DNA of 63,977 bases, filler included, from Basidiobolus ranarum (Eukaryota), in the NCBI GenBank assembly GCA_040143965.1. It is 3 parts of 3 records of this genome, joined end to end, with 100 filler letters (N's around TTAATTAATTAA, not from the genome) between each part and the next. Parts side by side here need not be neighbours in the genome. Positions count along the whole stretch, not along the records: positions 43,070 to 63,977 come from JASJQH010000218.1; 2 more parts are not named here. One strand, given 5' to 3'. Below are positions 48,912-52,499 of this stretch, one piece after another. The notes below the pieces were generated by a model. The model was not told the origin of the DNA. It did not search any database and worked only from the letters and a program-made list of their open reading frames with translations. How positions within the stretch are numbered: position 1 is the first letter of the stretch; each line of letters begins with the position of its first letter. Both the position numbers and the translations under genes were made by a program.

Positions 48912-51900
48912 TTAAGCTGGGATTTGACCACCATACATCTCTTCGAGATCCAACTTAGGGTCGCCAATCAACTTCAATCCAAATTTATCGGAAAGAATTT
49001 TCACAGCACTTGGTCTCAAGAAGGCTGGCAATTGTGGCCCAACTCTGATATCCTGTAATCCCAAGGATAATAGAGAGAGAAGTACAACTACAGCCTTTTG
49101 CTCGAACCAAGAGAGTACTATCGACAATGGAAGATCATGAATGGTGCATTTCAGGGCATCAGCTAAAGCAGAAGCGACTTGAACTGCCGCATACGAATCG
49201 TTACACTGACCCATATCGAGCAATCTGGGGATACCAGAGTCTCCAATGGACTTCCATTGTAAGGAGTTGATTCTGAATTTACCACAACCAGCAGTAAGAA
49301 CTACAGCAGTTTCTGGAAGTATCTTGGCTAAGTCTGTGTAGTAACTACGTTCTCCTTCATAACCATCACATCCACCAATGACAAAGACTCTACTGATGTC
49401 TCCAGTTTCAATAGCCTTCAATACTGTTGGGGCAACACCCAAAATGGTTTCAGAACTGAAGCCAACTTGATAGTTGTCGGTGATTGGAGTGAAGCTGCTA
49501 GGAGGATACTTGAATTCTAGCGTTTCTTCAGTAAATCCTGGCGACTCTAAGGCCACCTTGATAACTTGGCTAAAATCGAGATCGTCATTGACGTGGGCGA
49601 TATTTGGCCAGCCTACAACACCAACTGTGAACAAACGACCCTGATAGTCGTCTTTAGGGGCGGTTAAGCAATTGGTAGTCATGACGATGGCACCTGGGAA
49701 GTGTGGGAACTCAACAGACTGTCTCTGCCAAGCAACTCCATAATGACCTGCTAAATGTTTGTGCTGGCGAAGTTTGGGGTATCCGTGAGCAGGTAACATT
49801 TCACCGTGAGTATAAATGTTGATACCTAGTCCTTCGGTTTGATAAAGTAAAGCATCCAAGAACTTGAAATCATGACCAGAGACAAGAATACATTTACCAG
49901 GGCGTGGCTTGAGAGGTACAGTATGAGGTGTTTGAGCACCGAAAGTGTTGTTTGCATTATGTAACACATCCATACAAATCAAATTCACTTGACCAAGTTC
50001 CATCAAATATCCCAACATTTTTTCCATATCCTTTGCGTCCTTAGTAGTCAAGAAGTAGAAAGCACGGTGGACAAATTCATAGATACGACGATCTTCATGT
50101 GCAAGGACCAGTGCATGATCAGCGTAGGCGCAAAGTCCCTTCAAACCATACACCAACATCTCCTGTAAACCTACAAGGGAGTCGTTTTTGGTGGCTCTCA
50201 TACGGCTAAGAATACCAACTTCTTTACCTTTGGAAACAAGCATATCTTCAATATCCCCAACGGAACCTGGTGTGTTATCAAGAATGTCGGAAATGCTCTC
50301 TGGGATTGAACATTTCTTAGGACGCAATTCGAGTCTTTTGCATATAGCATGATACTGAACACTTAAACGCTTAGTATAATCTCTACACTCGTGGTGGAAT
50401 TGAAGGAATCTGCTACTATCGAAATTGACATTGGTCAATGTAGAGAAGGTAGCTTTCAAAGAGTAATGATTGACCTCGGGGTATTCGACCTCTGATTCTT
50501 GTACCTTATCGGGATGATCATATTGCAATTGACGCAAATGGTAAGCGTACCAGGATAGACGTTTAAGGCAGGTAATTAGAAGATCTTGAAGAGCTGCTAC
50601 TTCTGGAGTTTTACCGCAAACACCGATAGTTGTACATCCACGGCCCTGATAAGTTTGTTCACATTGATAACAGAACATTTTAGCATCTTCGTACAAATTA
50701 GCGGTAGGTATATCTTCACCATTCGCGTGGCCACCTCTCTTGAGAATGATGCTTTTCAGTGCATTCTCCTCATCTGCACTCTTGGCGTAAGCCTCAACCT
50801 CCCAACGGTTTTGTTTTTTGAGGTTGGCAATGATTTCTAATGACTCTTCATAGGAAATTTGCTTGTTTGCTTGCAAGCACTCCCCAATGGTAATTTCCAT
50901 AGCACCTGGGATTAAGCCACCGAGTCCACAGTACAAATATGTGCCGTTATTATCTAAGTAATCAGTAACTTTTTCAGGGAAGTCAAGCATTCTAACGGCA
51001 CAGTTTTTCTGGTGATCACGAGAGGCGGCATCAATGACCTCCACAAGTCCTTTACGTGTGAAAGAATCCAACTCATCTTTAAAGAGGAATTCATGTTCGT
51101 AATATCTCATACCATAATAGAGTCTGATACGAGTCATTTCATGTCCTTGTTCAAGCAAAACCTCACGATGTTGAAGAATCGAACGGAATACACCAATACC
51201 ACTACCAAGAGCCACACCTAGAATTGGAGTGTCAAGACGTTCAGGCAAGTGGATCAATCCAGATTGAATTTTCAAGTAAACATAAGGGTCGGCAGAATCT
51301 GGCGACTTCTTGGACAAGTAAGTGGAAGTCAAGCCTTGGAATTTACCACCGTTATCTGTTTTCCATTCTTCCACAAAGAATACAATATCGATTTTGTCTT
51401 TTGAGGCCAGAGGAGATGAAGCAATGGAATAATATCTACTGGAAATCCTGGGAACGTTACTAATGAATTGCTCCAATGATATCTTTACAGAAGAATAGCG
51501 TTCAAGAACATCCACAATACTGAATACAGTTGATGTAGATAATTTCATGTACATATTTCCGGCCAACATGTCGGAAGCCAAACTCTCAAGTGCCTCTTGC
51601 TCTTGGACATCAGTAGCAAGACAGCTAAATCCTTCGACAAGCGCGCGACTAGGGATTGAACTAATGTCCAAAAAGTTTTTCAATAGTTGACGTATAGTTA
51701 GCACTGAAGGTAATGAAATAGAGTCGTCAGTCGGCTGAATCTCTATAACACTATCTAAATCTACGTCTAAAACTTTAGCAGCTCTTGCAACCAGATCATC
51801 AGGATTTTCGGGCATAATTTGGACATGGCCAGCAACTTCATACTCGAGATGTGATTGACCGATATCGAATGTTACTAAGCAGCCGGTTCTTTCGTAATCT

Positions 51901-52499
51901 GGTGCAGTAAGTAGTCTATTTGAGGTGACGGGGACTTTAGTGTATCCTTCATGCACGACTTCAACATTAGTCTGATCCGATTTATGAATTTCGACTGAGA
52001 CAGGCAAAGTCATCTTAACATCTGTGCCTGTCAGTTTAGTCCAAAGTGCCTTCAGCCAAGGACGGAAGGCGGTTTCATGACCGTTACCATCATACTCATC
52101 TCCTAATCCGACTGGTAAAATATTGAAACCACCAAGTTCGCTCATTCGTTGGTCCAATAATTTAGCAGCCTTGTTGAAGTTTTCTTGCAATGTACGGTTT
52201 CCGAGGCCAAAAACTGCATATCTAGTGTTATGGAAGAGGTTGGCTGAGTGATTTTGGTTCTTGAGGTAAGCCCAGAGTGGAGCAGCAGAATCAGGAAACT
52301 CGCCATTGTAGAAAGTACAAGTTAGAAATACGATCAAAGGCTCATTGGGCAGTGTTTCTAGATCAACTTCGTCCATTCGAGTCAGCTTAACGTCGAAGCT
52401 ACGGATTTTAGCAAAGGTTTGCACCACTTTGGCATAGCCTTCGGTTGTTCCTGTCTGAGAACCGTATAAAATCAGCATTCGTGACTTTTCTGCTGCCAT
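48912..52499 (-). CDS. hcp: Diflavin reductase (flavodoxin-FAD-NADPH)::hybrid cluster protein (HCP, hydroxylamine/NO reductase) fusion
   Basis: Single intronless 1195-aa ORF. Residues about 1-571: LYGSQTGTTE, TFYNGEFPD, YAVFGLGN, RYYSIASS, GLTSTYL, GSGIGVFRS, LYYGMR, ASRD, YCG. Residues 608-1195: MFCYQCEQTYQGRGCTTIGVCGK, SGHD, THGEMLPAHGYP, MTTNC, GGCDG, AGCGKFR, GQCNDSY, SWFEQKA. Confidence 0.95.
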   Translation of the reverse strand: MAAEKSRMLILYGSQTGTTEGYAKVVQTFAKIRSFDVKLTRMDEVDLETLPNEPLIVFLTCTFYNGEFPDSAAPLWAYLKNQNHSANLFHNTRYAVFGLGNRTLQENFNKAAKLLDQRMSELGGFNILPVGLGDEYDGNGHETAFRPWLKALWTKLTGTDVKMTLPVSVEIHKSDQTNVEVVHEGYTKVPVTSNRLLTAPDYERTGCLVTFDIGQSHLEYEVAGHVQIMPENPDDLVARAAKVLDVDLDSVIEIQPTDDSISLPSVLTIRQLLKNFLDISSIPSRALVEGFSCLATDVQEQEALESLASDMLAGNMYMKLSTSTVFSIVDVLERYSSVKISLEQFISNVPRISSRYYSIASSPLASKDKIDIVFFVEEWKTDNGGKFQGLTSTYLSKKSPDSADPYVYLKIQSGLIHLPERLDTPILGVALGSGIGVFRSILQHREVLLEQGHEMTRIRLYYGMRYYEHEFLFKDELDSFTRKGLVEVIDAASRDHQKNCAVRMLDFPEKVTDYLDNNGTYLYCGLGGLIPGAMEITIGECLQANKQISYEESLEIIANLKKQNRWEVEAYAKSADEENALKSIILKRGGHANGEDIPTANLYEDAKMFCYQCEQTYQGRGCTTIGVCGKTPEVAALQDLLITCLKRLSWYAYHLRQLQYDHPDKVQESEVEYPEVNHYSLKATFSTLTNVNFDSSRFLQFHHECRDYTKRLSVQYHAICKRLELRPKKCSIPESISDILDNTPGSVGDIEDMLVSKGKEVGILSRMRATKNDSLVGLQEMLVYGLKGLCAYADHALVLAHEDRRIYEFVHRAFYFLTTKDAKDMEKMLGYLMELGQVNLICMDVLHNANNTFGAQTPHTVPLKPRPGKCILVSGHDFKFLDALLYQTEGLGINIYTHGEMLPAHGYPKLRQHKHLAGHYGVAWQRQSVEFPHFPGAIVMTTNCLTAPKDDYQGRLFTVGVVGWPNIAHVNDDLDFSQVIKVALESPGFTEETLEFKYPPSSFTPITDNYQVGFSSETILGVAPTVLKAIETGDISRVFVIGGCDGYEGERSYYTDLAKILPETAVVLTAGCGKFRINSLQWKSIGDSGIPRLLDMGQCNDSYAAVQVASALADALKCTIHDLPLSIVLSWFEQKAVVVLLSLLSLGLQDIRVGPQLPAFLRPSAVKILSDKFGLKLIGDPKLDLEEMYGGQIPA

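What the first reader, a model, noticed from the sequence alone, without database searches (positions are those of the whole stretch)
48912..52499. Self-sufficient diflavin reductase-hybrid cluster protein fusion in a fungal genome
Seen: one uninterrupted 1195-aa ORF with an N-terminal cytochrome-P450-reductase/CysJ-type module (FMN, FAD and NADPH motifs, about residues 1-571), a linker of about 36 aa, and a full HCP (608-1195). The HCP keeps the four cubane Cys and every hybrid-cluster position (His in SGHD, Glu in HGEM, Cys in TTNC, GGCDG, AGCG and GQCND, Glu/Lys in EQK). Established: HCP is an O2-sensitive Fe-S enzyme mainly of anaerobic or facultative prokaryotes and some anaerobic protists. 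It acts as an NO reductase in nitrosative stress and normally needs a separate electron donor (Hcr in E. coli). Inference: this is a one-polypeptide NADPH->FAD->FMN->[4Fe-4S]->hybrid cluster chain, built like NOS or P450-BM3 but with the domain order reversed and consuming rather than making NO. That would be an N2O-forming or NO-detoxifying route distinct from fungal P450nor and flavohemoglobin. Similar eukaryotic fusions may have been noted in sequence surveys; I know of no biochemical characterisation.
Basis: partly seen in the sequence, partly recalled or inferred. Interest (0 to 1): 0.92.

Follow-up and report, generated by a model that had tools for sequence, protein, structure and literature searches.

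The report
Reductase-fused hybrid cluster protein gene
A Basidiobolus-type fungus carries an intact gene that joins an iron-sulfur enzyme, used by bacteria against nitric oxide and hydroxylamine, to its own NADPH-type electron-feeding module; the fusion belongs to a small family seen so far only in eukaryotes, and I found no biochemical study of it.

Summary
Window 48912-52499 (minus strand) is one uninterrupted 1195-aa ORF: Flavodoxin_1, FAD_binding_1, NAD_binding_1, a roughly 36-aa low-confidence linker, then a full hybrid cluster protein (HCP). All four cubane cysteines and all seven hybrid-cluster ligands are present.

It is not a one-off. 70 of the 120 best database hits share the architecture, and every hit that carries an organism label is eukaryotic: Basidiobolus meristosporus at 87-88% identity, plus chytrids, Saprolegniales oomycetes, ichthyosporeans, glaucophytes, Chromera and a pelagophyte. 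In trees, both halves form single clades with matching topology, which points to one ancient fusion. I found no prokaryotic or viral version.

The HCP has class-I cysteine spacing. The reductase is a separate diflavin lineage, neither CPR nor CysJ.

In the literature I searched, the only mention is a 2021 table footnote for Cyanophora, and I found no biochemistry.

Best reading: a cytosolic, self-sufficient NAD(P)H-driven HCP that reduces NO and/or hydroxylamine. The catalysis is inferred, not shown. Transcripts could not be checked.

The scan had earlier noted an unfused HCP/diflavin-reductase gene pair in Naegleria (e1-1890844), but not this fusion.

Verdict: real, conserved and uncharacterised, but already annotated in public databases. 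Interest is moderate to high, not 0.92.

The parts
48912..52499 (-). Complete intronless CDS, 1195 aa plus stop: a diflavin reductase fused to a hybrid cluster protein.
   Evidence: ORF; colinear at 99-100% coverage with two 1197-aa B. meristosporus proteins.
52056..52472 (-). FMN-binding flavodoxin domain (residues 10-148). It starts almost at the N-terminus, with no membrane anchor and no presequence.
   Evidence: Flavodoxin_1, E 1.1e-29; the SQTGT loop (residues 14-18) aligns to the same loop of rat CPR. Q15, T16 and G17 are invariant in 58 of 58 fusions.
51318..51941 (-). FAD-binding domain (residues 187-394) carrying RYYSIASS.
   Evidence: FAD_binding_1, E 4.3e-46; identical to the RYYSIASS of rat CPR. 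R355, Y357 and S358 are present in 58 of 58.
50787..51215 (-). NAD(P)H-binding domain and C-terminal strand of the reductase (residues 429-571). It includes S493-R494, C524, E569 and the aromatic Y571.
   Evidence: NAD_binding_1, 25.4 bits against a cut-off of 22; alignment to rat CPR. E569 in 56 of 58; position 571 is F or Y in 58 of 58.
50679..50786 (-). Inter-module linker (residues 572-607), with a conserved D576-x-x-N579 motif at its start.
   Evidence: helix at 575-588, and pLDDT below 50 over 578-627. D576 and N579 each present in 57 of 58.
50616..50672 (-). [4Fe-4S] cubane motif CX2CX8CX5C (C610, C613, C622, C628), with class-I spacing.
   Evidence: aligns without gaps to the chain 1e2u (which I take to be D. 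vulgaris HCP) at its C3, C6, C15 and C21. The chain 7de4 (which I take to be E. coli class II HCP) has extra residues here; 58 of 58 keep all four Cys.
48915..50678 (-). Hybrid cluster protein module (residues 608-1195).
   Evidence: Prismane, E 1.4e-138. NF003658, 642.5 bits; the solved chain 7de4 matches at E 4e-135.
49101..49874 (-). Span holding the seven hybrid-cluster ligands: H876, E900, C944, C1044, C1072, C1099 and E1133.
   Evidence: each aligns to the ligand that PMC10502027 names for Mm HCP (His193, Glu217, Cys261, Cys347-persulfide, Cys375, Cys400, Glu434).
49488..49517 (-). Insert specific to the fusion clade (residues 995-1004, EFKYPPSSFT; consensus F-x-Y-P).
   Evidence: present in at least 70% of the 32 fusion rows and absent from at least 80% of the 28 bacterial rows (the script's thresholds); the 5 bacterial rows printed all show a gap. 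F996 and Y998 are conserved in at least 90% of 24 rows. Its role is unknown.

Best explanation
The gene encodes a soluble, probably cytosolic, self-sufficient hybrid cluster protein.

Proposed mechanism: NAD(P)H reduces FAD in the C-terminal half of the N-terminal reductase module. Here NADPH is the likely donor, because the Ser-Arg pair of the 2'-phosphate site is kept. FAD passes single electrons to FMN in the flavodoxin domain. That domain swings on its hinge to the [4Fe-4S] cubane at the very start of the HCP module. The cubane is tethered by a flexible linker of about 36 residues right next to the FAD/FMN interface, and it feeds the Fe-S-O hybrid cluster where substrate is reduced.

Most likely substrates: NO (to N2O) and/or hydroxylamine (to ammonium). 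That would give protection against nitrosative stress when the fungus meets low oxygen together with nitrite or NO, for example in a gut or in decaying matter.

Shown: the architecture, intact cofactor and ligand sites, conservation of both halves, and a single origin of the fusion.

Inferred: the direction of electron flow, the donor, the substrates, the cellular location and the physiological role.
For: 1. Four domains lie in order in one ORF.

2. All 11 metal ligands are present, and the seven hybrid-cluster ligands align to residues named as ligands in PMC10502027.

3. The FMN loop, the RxYS motif, the catalytic Cys and the C-terminal acid plus aromatic all align to rat CPR. They are conserved across the 58 fusions examined, and 54 of 58 keep all 11 metal ligands.

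4. Both halves give single clades (HCP SH-aLRT 99 and 98; reductase 100) with the same internal groups. The two modules have therefore stayed together and under constraint since one fusion event. Identity to B. meristosporus reaches up to 91% in the HCP half and up to 86% in the reductase half.

5. Full-length fusions also occur in transcriptome assemblies (TRINITY, MMETSP: P0035, P0044, P0049, P0071, P0508). In relatives, then, the fusion is read as one mRNA.

6. HCP has been fused independently to other NAD(P)H-linked donor modules: P0394 and P0498 are HCP-cyt b5-FAD_binding_6-NAD_binding_1, and P0391 is cyt b5-HCP. All three lie outside the diflavin-fusion clade.

7. From established knowledge (recalled): E. 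coli Hcp takes electrons from the NADH-dependent flavoprotein Hcr, and CysJ passes electrons from FMN to an Fe-S/siroheme partner.

8. There is no N-terminal extension. Only 13 codons lie between the ATG and the upstream stop, and the flavodoxin strand starts at residue 7.

9. Composition matches the neighbours: GC3 is 0.380 against 0.350-0.420. Neighbouring genes are ordinary fungal genes.
Against: - There is no transcript, protein or activity evidence for this gene.
- The physiological reaction of HCP is itself unsettled: PMC10210160 says its function is 'still unclear'.
- By established knowledge HCP is oxygen-sensitive, yet most carriers of the fusion are aerobes.
- NAD_binding_1 scores only just above its cut-off.
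- The residue aligned to rat CPR Tyr178, an FMN-stacking residue by my recall, is Leu104 here and Asn or Thr in most family members.
- Most family members have Ser-His, not Ser-Arg, at the 2'-phosphate site (44 of 58). NADPH specificity is therefore uncertain for the family as a whole.
- The full-length model has pTM 0.53, so it does not define how the modules sit together.
- Three oomycete paralogs have lost hybrid-cluster ligands, so not every family member can be a classical HCP.
Confidence: 0.55

Rival explanations
1. The same self-sufficient enzyme, but its real job is hydroxylamine reduction to ammonium, either as detoxification or as a side branch of nitrogen assimilation. NO reduction would be incidental.
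For: The NCBIfam equivalog name is 'hydroxylamine reductase'. Hydroxylamine reductase activity is the classically measured one (cited in PMC10210160). PMC10502027's reference list cites a study (Cabello et al. 2004) whose title places the R. capsulatus hcp gene in the nas nitrate-assimilation region and ties it to hydroxylamine reduction.
Against: No nitrate or nitrite assimilation gene lies within the window. Recent bacterial work favours NO reduction, as stated in the abstract of PMC10210160 and in PMC13632651.
Confidence: 0.2
2. The enzyme acts mainly as an NADPH peroxidase or as a protein S-nitrosylase or redox sensor, not as a small-molecule nitrogen-oxide reductase.
For: [quoted passage not shown] Most carriers of the fusion are aerobes that face peroxide. 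The oomycete paralogs that have lost ligands show the scaffold can take on other roles.
Against: This protein keeps the complete ligand set of catalytic HCPs. A dedicated NADPH-fed reductase module fits sustained turnover better than signalling.
Confidence: 0.1
3. Electrons flow the other way. The HCP module oxidises a substrate and the diflavin module reduces NADP+, as in pyruvate:NADP+ oxidoreductase.
For: Eukaryotic PFO-diflavin (PNO) and hydrogenase-diflavin fusions appear among the hits (P0106-P0108, P0111). By my recall, PNO runs towards NADP+.
Against: All HCP activities cited in the papers I read are reductions. The hybrid cluster potential quoted in PMC10502027 (-220 to +80 mV) lies at or above that of NADPH. 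In those other fusions the module sits at the C-terminus, whereas here it is at the N-terminus.
Confidence: 0.03
4. An artefact: a misassembly that joined two genes, a contaminant contig, or a decaying pseudogene.
For: Nothing specific supports this. It stands only because the reads could not be inspected.
Against: The same colinear architecture occurs in 70 of 120 hits from independent assemblies and transcriptomes. The two halves give matching trees. The frame is open over 3.6 kb with all functional residues intact. Flanking genes are fungal and have the same GC3.
Confidence: 0.02

Closest known systems
E. coli Hcp-Hcr (class II HCP with its NADH:HCP oxidoreductase)
   Same: A pyridine nucleotide feeds a flavoprotein, then an Fe-S centre, then the HCP cubane and the hybrid cluster. 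By sequence, the best solved match to the HCP half is 7de4 at E 4e-135. I take 7de4 to be the E. coli protein; the entry title says only 'Hydroxylamine reductase'.
   Different: Hcp-Hcr consists of two separate proteins. By my recall, Hcr is an FNR-like FAD/[2Fe-2S] protein and not a diflavin reductase. The class II N-terminal protrusion, which PMC10502027 says is needed for work with HCR, is absent here: the window protein lacks the extra residues in the Cys motif.
Class I HCPs of Desulfovibrio vulgaris and Methanothermococcus thermolithotrophicus (1e2u, 8cnr)
   Same: The cubane spacing CX2CX8CX5C is identical, all seven hybrid-cluster ligands are shared, and the match is full-length (E 4e-114 and 1e-117).
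   Different: These are stand-alone proteins of about 550 aa from strict anaerobes, and PMC10502027 says their electron partners 'remain unknown'. The window protein carries its own donor module and a clade-specific 10-residue insert.
Annotated 'hybrid cluster protein' genes of Basidiobolus meristosporus CBS 931.73 (P0002, P0003)
   Same: 88% and 87% identity over 100% of the length, with the same four domains. These are orthologs or co-orthologs.
   Different: They come from a different species. The window's coding GC (0.39-0.44) is below the 0.488 that PMC7466969 reports for genes surrounding HGT candidates in B. meristosporus. I found no functional study of either protein.
Self-sufficient diflavin fusions: P450 BM3 and nitric oxide synthase
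   Same: One polypeptide joins a CPR-like FMN/FAD/NADPH module to a metalloenzyme domain. The solved chains 9q05 (NOS, E 5e-54) and 9wuk (BM3-type, E 1e-46) match residues 4-584.
   Different: The domain order is reversed, with the reductase at the N-terminus here. The acceptor is an Fe-S cluster and not haem. The likely chemistry consumes NO, whereas NOS makes it.
CysJI sulfite reductase, and the eukaryotic PNO and HydA-CysJ fusions
   Same: A diflavin module exchanges electrons with an Fe-S enzyme. PNO and hydrogenase fusions appear among the hits (P0106-P0108, P0111).
   Different: CysJ membership fails (TIGR01931: 195 bits against a cut-off of 668). In PNO and HydA-CysJ the module is C-terminal. 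In the tree, the reductase of the HCP fusions forms its own clade apart from these.
Unfused eukaryotic HCPs (Chlamydomonas HCP1-4; Acanthamoeba mitochondrial HCP)
   Same: These are eukaryotic HCPs linked to hypoxia or anoxia. Acanthamoeba HCP is induced by hypoxia and anoxia and is proposed to remove NO (PMC13632651).
   Different: They are organellar and stand-alone, with ferredoxin suggested as donor in algae (PMC8003979). In the HCP tree the green-algal proteins fall outside the fusion clade. No Acanthamoeba sequence was in my tree.

Membership tests
Hybrid cluster protein (Pfam PF03063 Prismane; NCBIfam NF003658/TIGR01703 hydroxylamine reductase) | Full-length match above the curated cut-offs | tested here: met
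   Prismane at 608-1185, covering profile positions 1-512 of 513, 463 bits against 27. NF003658 at 642.5 bits against 367; TIGR01703 at 611.8 against 360.8.
Hybrid cluster protein | N-terminal four-Cys motif for the [4Fe-4S] cubane | tested here: met
   C610, C613, C622 and C628 align to C3, C6, C15 and C21 of the chain 1e2u.
Hybrid cluster protein | Seven hybrid-cluster ligands (His, Glu, Cys, Cys-persulfide, Cys, Cys, Glu) | tested here: met
   One search gives the ligand list for Mm HCP from PMC10502027. One search aligns them to H876, E900, C944, C1044, C1072, C1099 and E1133.
Hybrid cluster protein | Actual incorporation of the Fe-S-O cluster, and NH2OH or NO reductase activity | not testable with these tools
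   Needs anaerobic purification, EPR and enzyme assays.
Class I HCP (as opposed to class II) | Short Cys-rich motif without the class II protrusion | tested here: met
   no gaps against 1e2u or 8cnr, while 7de4 has insertions of 3 and 1 residues within the motif. The class distinction is taken from PMC10502027.
Class II HCP (Hcp-Hcr type) | N-terminal protrusion, and a partner Hcr-type FAD/[2Fe-2S] reductase | tested here: not met
   The protrusion is absent. The attached reductase is a diflavin type. Overall sequence is nonetheless closest to 7de4.
Diflavin reductase superfamily (CPR, CysJ, NOS-reductase, MSR, NDOR1) | Flavodoxin_1, FAD_binding_1 and NAD_binding_1 in that order, with the FMN loop, RxYS and a C-terminal aromatic | tested here: met
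   conserved in 58 of 58 for Q15, T16, G17, R355, Y357 and S358, and position 571 is F or Y in 58 of 58.
NADPH-cytochrome P450 reductase proper | N-terminal membrane anchor, and placement inside the CPR clade | tested here: not met
   The protein starts 6 residues before the first flavodoxin strand. In the 68-row tree the 32 fusion modules form their own clade (support 100), apart from the 29-row CPR-like clade.
CysJ (assimilatory sulfite reductase flavoprotein, TIGR01931) | Score above the equivalog cut-off | tested here: not met
   195 bits against 668.15. The solved CysJ chain 6efv matches at only E 4e-26, compared with 7e-54 for CPR.
Diflavin reductase-HCP fusion family (eukaryotic; no published name found) | Colinear four-domain architecture, with both halves placed inside the fusion clades | tested here: met
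   70 of 120 hits share the architecture; the window protein sits with the two B. meristosporus proteins (support 100) inside both fusion clades.

The most novel reading that the evidence does not exclude
This fusion family is a single-origin invention, apparently confined to eukaryotes. In it a class-I-type HCP runs directly on NADPH, which would supply the first physiological electron donor identified for a class-I-type HCP. It would also give aerobic and facultative eukaryotes (early-diverging fungi, oomycetes, ichthyosporeans and several algae) a third route for removing NO, possibly forming N2O, beside flavohaemoglobin and P450nor. The family's patchy distribution, which does not follow the species tree, would reflect eukaryote-to-eukaryote gene transfer among osmotrophs and algae that share habitats.
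Probability: 0.3. Interest if true: 0.8.

Novelty: new variant of a known kind. Interest (0 to 1): 0.58.

Why it matters
HCP is widespread, yet its physiological reaction and, for class I enzymes, its electron donor are still open questions. PMC10502027 calls for the partners of class I HCPs to be identified.

A natural one-chain NADPH-to-HCP enzyme offers three things:
- It names a donor type for one whole clade.
- It provides a system that can be assayed with NADPH alone, without hunting for a partner.
- It shows that HCP chemistry persists in the cytosol of largely aerobic eukaryotes.

If the enzyme forms N2O, it would be an uncounted eukaryotic source or sink in nitrogen-oxide cycling. If it detoxifies NO, it may matter for how gut-associated or pathogenic fungi and oomycetes survive host or microbial NO.

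Independent fusions of HCP to cytochrome b5/FAD modules suggest a general evolutionary pressure to hard-wire HCP to NAD(P)H.

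Tried and rejected
1. Docking of the FMN domain (residues 1-165) on the HCP module (600-1195), with FMN and a 4Fe-4S cluster riding along (complex prediction). The verdict was 'no answer' (score 0.00, controls not run, my alignment not used). This counts neither for nor against.

3. The window's own genome is not held, so I could not search for paralogs or for other NO-handling genes (flavohaemoglobin, P450nor, nitrate/nitrite reductases).

4. ESM Atlas. The best scores were 0.78, to generic diflavin reductase clusters and below the level worth trusting. No structure search was possible.

5. Testing whether the Naegleria reductase P0197 is the gene that earlier notes place next to HCP. 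The look-up by sequence returned only unrelated notes. In my tree the Naegleria soluble reductases sit in the CPR-like clade and are not sister to the fusion module, so a direct 'gene pair became fusion' link is not supported.

6. A prokaryotic origin of the fusion. The scan of prokaryote genomes with the junction region kept 80 loci, and all 80 match only from query residue 162 or later, that is the HCP start. This tool reaches close relatives only, so the negative result is weak.

7. Viral carriage. Four viral-contig loci were found, and all hold stand-alone HCP only.

8. Recent horizontal transfer into this genome. GC3 is the same as in the neighbours. Lack of introns is not unusual, because 36% of fungal-origin genes in B. 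meristosporus have none (PMC7466969).

9. Literature. Nine full-text searches and term look-ups inside eight papers found no study of the fusion beyond the footnote in PMC8003979. van Lis et al. 2020 (FEBS J) is not held, and I did not try Hagen 2022 (Coord Chem Rev), which I expect is not held. Either may mention the fusion. No supplements were opened.

Full report
**Observation**

One search finds a single ATG-to-stop ORF at 48912..52499 on the minus strand, 1195 aa long. Read stop to stop, the frame extends only 13 codons further upstream.

Pfam places four domains in order:
- Flavodoxin_1 at 10-148 (E 1.1e-29)
- FAD_binding_1 at 187-394 (4.3e-46)
- NAD_binding_1 at 429-530 (2.4e-5; 25.4 bits against a cut-off of 22)
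- Prismane at 608-1185 (1.4e-138)

NCBIfam's hydroxylamine-reductase equivalogs are passed with a wide margin (NF003658, 642.5 bits against 367). The CysJ equivalog is not reached (195 against 668). Against solved structures, the C-terminal half matches HCPs (7de4 at E 2.5e-134; 8cnr; 1e2u). The N-terminal half matches CPR (E 7e-54), NOS and P450 BM3 reductase modules, and matches CysJ only weakly (E 4e-26).

**Residue-level check: the HCP half**

PMC10502027 names the seven ligands of the Methanothermobacter HCP hybrid cluster as His193, Glu217, Cys261, Cys347 (persulfide), Cys375, Cys400 and Glu434 (passages read). I counted along the HMMER alignment to chain 7e0l. Its numbering fits that paper, including Met65 as the start of the Cys-rich region. 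The seven ligands fall on H876, E900, C944, C1044, C1072, C1099 and E1133 of the window protein.

The four cubane cysteines (C610, C613, C622, C628) align without a gap to C3, C6, C15 and C21 of 1e2u. By contrast, 7de4 has insertions of 3 and 1 residues inside the motif. I take 7de4 to be the E. coli class II protein; that identification is recalled, not in the entry title. According to PMC10502027, the longer Cys-rich protrusion is what distinguishes class II and serves its reductase HCR. The window protein therefore has a class-I-type entry site, even though its overall sequence is nearest to 7de4.

**Residue-level check: the reductase half**

The alignment to rat CPR shows:
- the FMN phosphate loop SQTGT
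- an identical RYYSIASS FAD motif
- S493-R494 where CPR has the Ser-Arg pair that binds the 2'-phosphate (residue roles recalled)
- C524 in the YCG motif
- E569 and Y571 where CPR has Asp675 and Trp677 (recalled numbering that fits the alignment)

One departure stands out. The residue aligned to rat Tyr178 is Leu104. F108, four residues on, is nearly invariant in the family.

**Organism and context**

The two best hits are 1197-aa 'hybrid cluster protein' entries of Basidiobolus meristosporus CBS 931.73, at 88% and 87% identity over the whole length.

The window's other ORFs carry ordinary eukaryotic domains, some of them typically fungal (my characterisation):
- upstream of the finding: RGS, PPR, Cid1-type poly(A) polymerase, OHCU decarboxylase, Kre9/KNH, TCO89, PX and WD40
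- nearby: a KA1 kinase split over several ORFs, a C2H2 zinc finger, a PHD finger protein, indoleamine 2,3-dioxygenase immediately upstream on the same strand, and a cyclin

GC3 of the fusion gene is 0.380, the same in both halves, and within the 0.350-0.420 range of eight neighbouring ORFs. The gene has no intron while some neighbours clearly do. However, PMC7466969 reports that 36% of fungal-origin genes in B. meristosporus are intronless, so this says little. The gene is a resident fungal gene. It is neither a contaminant nor a recent arrival.

**How common is the fusion?**

- Among the 120 best of 286 significant hits in the 5.8-billion-protein collection, 70 (the window's own protein included) are longer than 1100 aa and carry Flavodoxin_1, FAD_binding_1 and Prismane labels. 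This is my count from the table.
- Of the other 69, 32 bear an organism name or come from a eukaryote collection, and all 32 are eukaryotic. They include Basidiobolus; the chytrids Polychytrium, Podochytrium and a Siphonaria entry flagged as possible contamination; the monoblepharids Gonapodya and Hyaloraphidium; the oomycetes Aphanomyces, Saprolegnia, Achlya and Thraustotheca; the ichthyosporean Sphaeroforma and a sequence labelled CFRG that I take to be Creolimax; Chromera; Chrysophaeum; and several EukProt or MMETSP transcripts. The other 37 are unnamed metagenome or transcriptome sequences, mostly on contigs of 3.7-5 kb.
- The listing of cluster members adds the glaucophyte Cyanoptyche.
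- A stricter script, which requires the FMN loop, RxYS and the HCP start in that order, finds 58 of 120. That is a lower bound because motif variants are missed. Of those 58, 54 keep all 11 metal ligands.
- In the exhaustive library of 1.84 billion cluster representatives at 50% identity, only 7 of the best 150 match end to end. The family is real but small.
- A scan of prokaryote genomes with the junction region kept 80 loci. All 80 match only the HCP start.
- Four viral-contig loci hold stand-alone HCP only.

**One fusion or several?**

I built two maximum-likelihood trees (IQ-TREE quick search, LG+G4, SH-aLRT support). The rows were chosen by hand: 32 of the fusions, plus named and unnamed stand-alone relatives.

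- HCP tree (81 rows). All 32 fusion HCP modules lie in one clade with support 99. The clade holds 44 rows. The 12 others are short or truncated sequences, a flavodoxin-HCP form and two reductase-less forms. The clade is separate from the green-algal and metamonad stand-alone HCPs and from a 27-row bacterial cluster.
- Enlarged HCP tree (95 rows). The same 44-row clade recurs with support 98.
- Reductase tree (68 rows). The 32 fusion modules form one clade with support 100. It lies apart from a 29-row CPR-like clade, which includes the Naegleria soluble reductases, and apart from PNO and hydrogenase-linked modules.

Both trees show the same internal structure. A 'marine protist plus Chromera' group stands opposite a group holding Gonapodya/Hyaloraphidium, the glaucophytes, Basidiobolus, and a chytrid + ichthyosporean + oomycete cluster. 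The simplest reading is one fusion event followed by co-evolution of the two halves. The grouping of chytrids, ichthyosporeans and oomycetes does not follow the species tree. That suggests either transfer between eukaryotes or old paralogy, and I did not test which.

**Structure**

The full-length AlphaFold model, built on a 24-row alignment, has mean pLDDT 80.6 and pTM 0.53. Both modules fold confidently. Residues 578-627 fall below pLDDT 50, covering most of the linker and the cubane loop. A low score for the cubane loop is to be expected, because the model contains no metal. The model supports two rigid modules joined by a flexible tether. It does not define how they dock.

**Mechanism (inferred)**

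The proposed chain is NAD(P)H to FAD, to FMN, to the cubane, to the hybrid cluster. Several observations bear on it.

1. The C-terminal aromatic residue of diflavin reductases stacks on FAD (recalled). The HCP cubane motif begins only 39 residues after that aromatic (Y571 to C610). The tether must therefore hold the cubane close to the FAD/FMN interface, within reach of a swinging FMN domain.
2. There are precedents for a flavoprotein feeding HCP or another Fe-S enzyme, namely E. coli Hcr and CysJ in sulfite reductase (both recalled).
3. Independent support comes from other architectures found in passing. P0394 and P0498 are HCP followed by cytochrome b5, FAD_binding_6 and NAD_binding_1. P0391 is cytochrome b5 followed by HCP. 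All three lie outside the diflavin-fusion clade. HCP has thus been wired to NAD(P)H-linked donors more than once.

The substrate cannot be decided from sequence. The papers I read give hydroxylamine reduction as the classical assay and NO reduction as the currently favoured role, and they stress that the function is unsettled (PMC10210160; PMC13632651). Acanthamoeba's unfused mitochondrial HCP is induced by hypoxia and anoxia.

The window protein has no N-terminal extension, so a cytosolic location is the default inference. In contrast, 18 of the 58 fusions have 58-98 residues ahead of the FMN loop, and some of those resemble presequences.

**Literature**

Nine full-text searches and term look-ups inside eight papers gave one mention of the architecture. 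[quoted passage not shown]

No diflavin fusion is mentioned in the passages returned for:
- the 2006 survey of HCP in protists (PMC1484493)
- the two HCP structure papers
- the 2026 Acanthamoeba mitoproteome paper
- two studies of horizontal transfer in early-diverging fungi

van Lis et al. 2020 is not held and I did not look up Hagen 2022. Either could contain more. No supplements were opened.

**Earlier notes of this scan**

Notes e1-1890844 and e1-634117 describe an unfused, head-to-head HCP and diflavin-reductase gene pair in Naegleria. They also pointed me to PMC13632651. I could not confirm which Naegleria reductase is meant. The Naegleria reductases in my tree are not sister to the fusion module. 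The pairing in Naegleria, if real, is therefore a parallel solution and not the precursor of this fusion.

**Verdict**

The gene is a new member, from a second Basidiobolus-type genome, of a single-origin fusion family seen only in eukaryotes. That family is catalogued in databases under generic names and, as far as I could search, has not been characterised biochemically. As a kind, it is a new variant of the HCP-plus-reductase system. It is worth an experiment, because it offers a one-protein, NADPH-driven handle on what HCP does and on what feeds class-I-type HCPs.

Noticed in passing
Proteins P0027 (Thraustotheca), P0029 (Achlya) and P0032 (Saprolegnia): A divergent oomycete paralog clade of the fusion keeps the reductase and the four cubane Cys but has lost hybrid-cluster ligands: H876 to Q in all three, C1044 to T or S, and C1099 to V in P0027. 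These look like neofunctionalised or non-catalytic HCP modules.
   Followed up: partly
Proteins P0394 and P0498 (902 and 955 aa) and P0391 (773 aa): Other HCP fusions exist. One is HCP followed by cytochrome b5, FAD_binding_6 and NAD_binding_1, a tail like that of nitrate reductase. The other is cytochrome b5 followed by HCP. Both come from unnamed short contigs and lie outside the diflavin-fusion clade, so they are independent fusions.
   Followed up: partly
Proteins P0074 (756 aa), P0077 (Platyophrya macrostoma, MMETSP) and P0078: Inside the fusion clade there are shorter forms. P0074 is flavodoxin directly joined to HCP, without the FAD/NADPH part. P0077 and P0078 have a roughly 100-aa N-terminal extension joined straight to HCP. 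That extension resembles the N-terminal extension of the full-length marine fusions P0033, P0038 and P0045. This suggests secondary loss of the reductase, or alternative isoforms.
   Followed up: partly
Window 53965-55077 (-): An indoleamine 2,3-dioxygenase gene lies 1.47 kb upstream on the same strand. Its Pfam match starts at profile position 125, so at least one further exon lies upstream. By my recall, IDO is a haem enzyme that needs reductive activation and is inhibited by NO. I could not test whether the adjacency is conserved.
   Followed up: no
Window 49488-49517 (-), residues 995-1004: A roughly 10-residue insert (EFKYPPSSFT; consensus F-x-Y-P) is present through the fusion clade and gapped in the sampled bacterial HCPs (at most 20% occupancy among 28 rows; a gap in all 5 printed). 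It is partly present in other eukaryotic HCPs. It is a candidate docking surface for the FMN domain, but that is speculation.
   Followed up: partly
Window residues 104 and 108 (near 52176-52190, -): The residue aligned to the FMN-stacking Tyr178 of rat CPR is Leu here, and Asn or Thr in 52 of 58 family members. F108 is kept in 56 of 58. The FMN edge may be more exposed than in CPR.
   Followed up: partly
Whole window: Window GC is 0.35-0.43 and coding GC is 0.39-0.44. That is well below the 0.488 PMC7466969 reports for genes surrounding HGT candidates in B. meristosporus, although the proteins are 87-88% identical. The source is probably a different species with a distinct base composition.
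   Followed up: no
Loci L081-L084 (IMG/VR contigs): Four contigs classed as viral encode stand-alone HCPs at 34-41% identity to the window's HCP half. I did not check whether these are true phage genes or host flanks of prophages.
   Followed up: no
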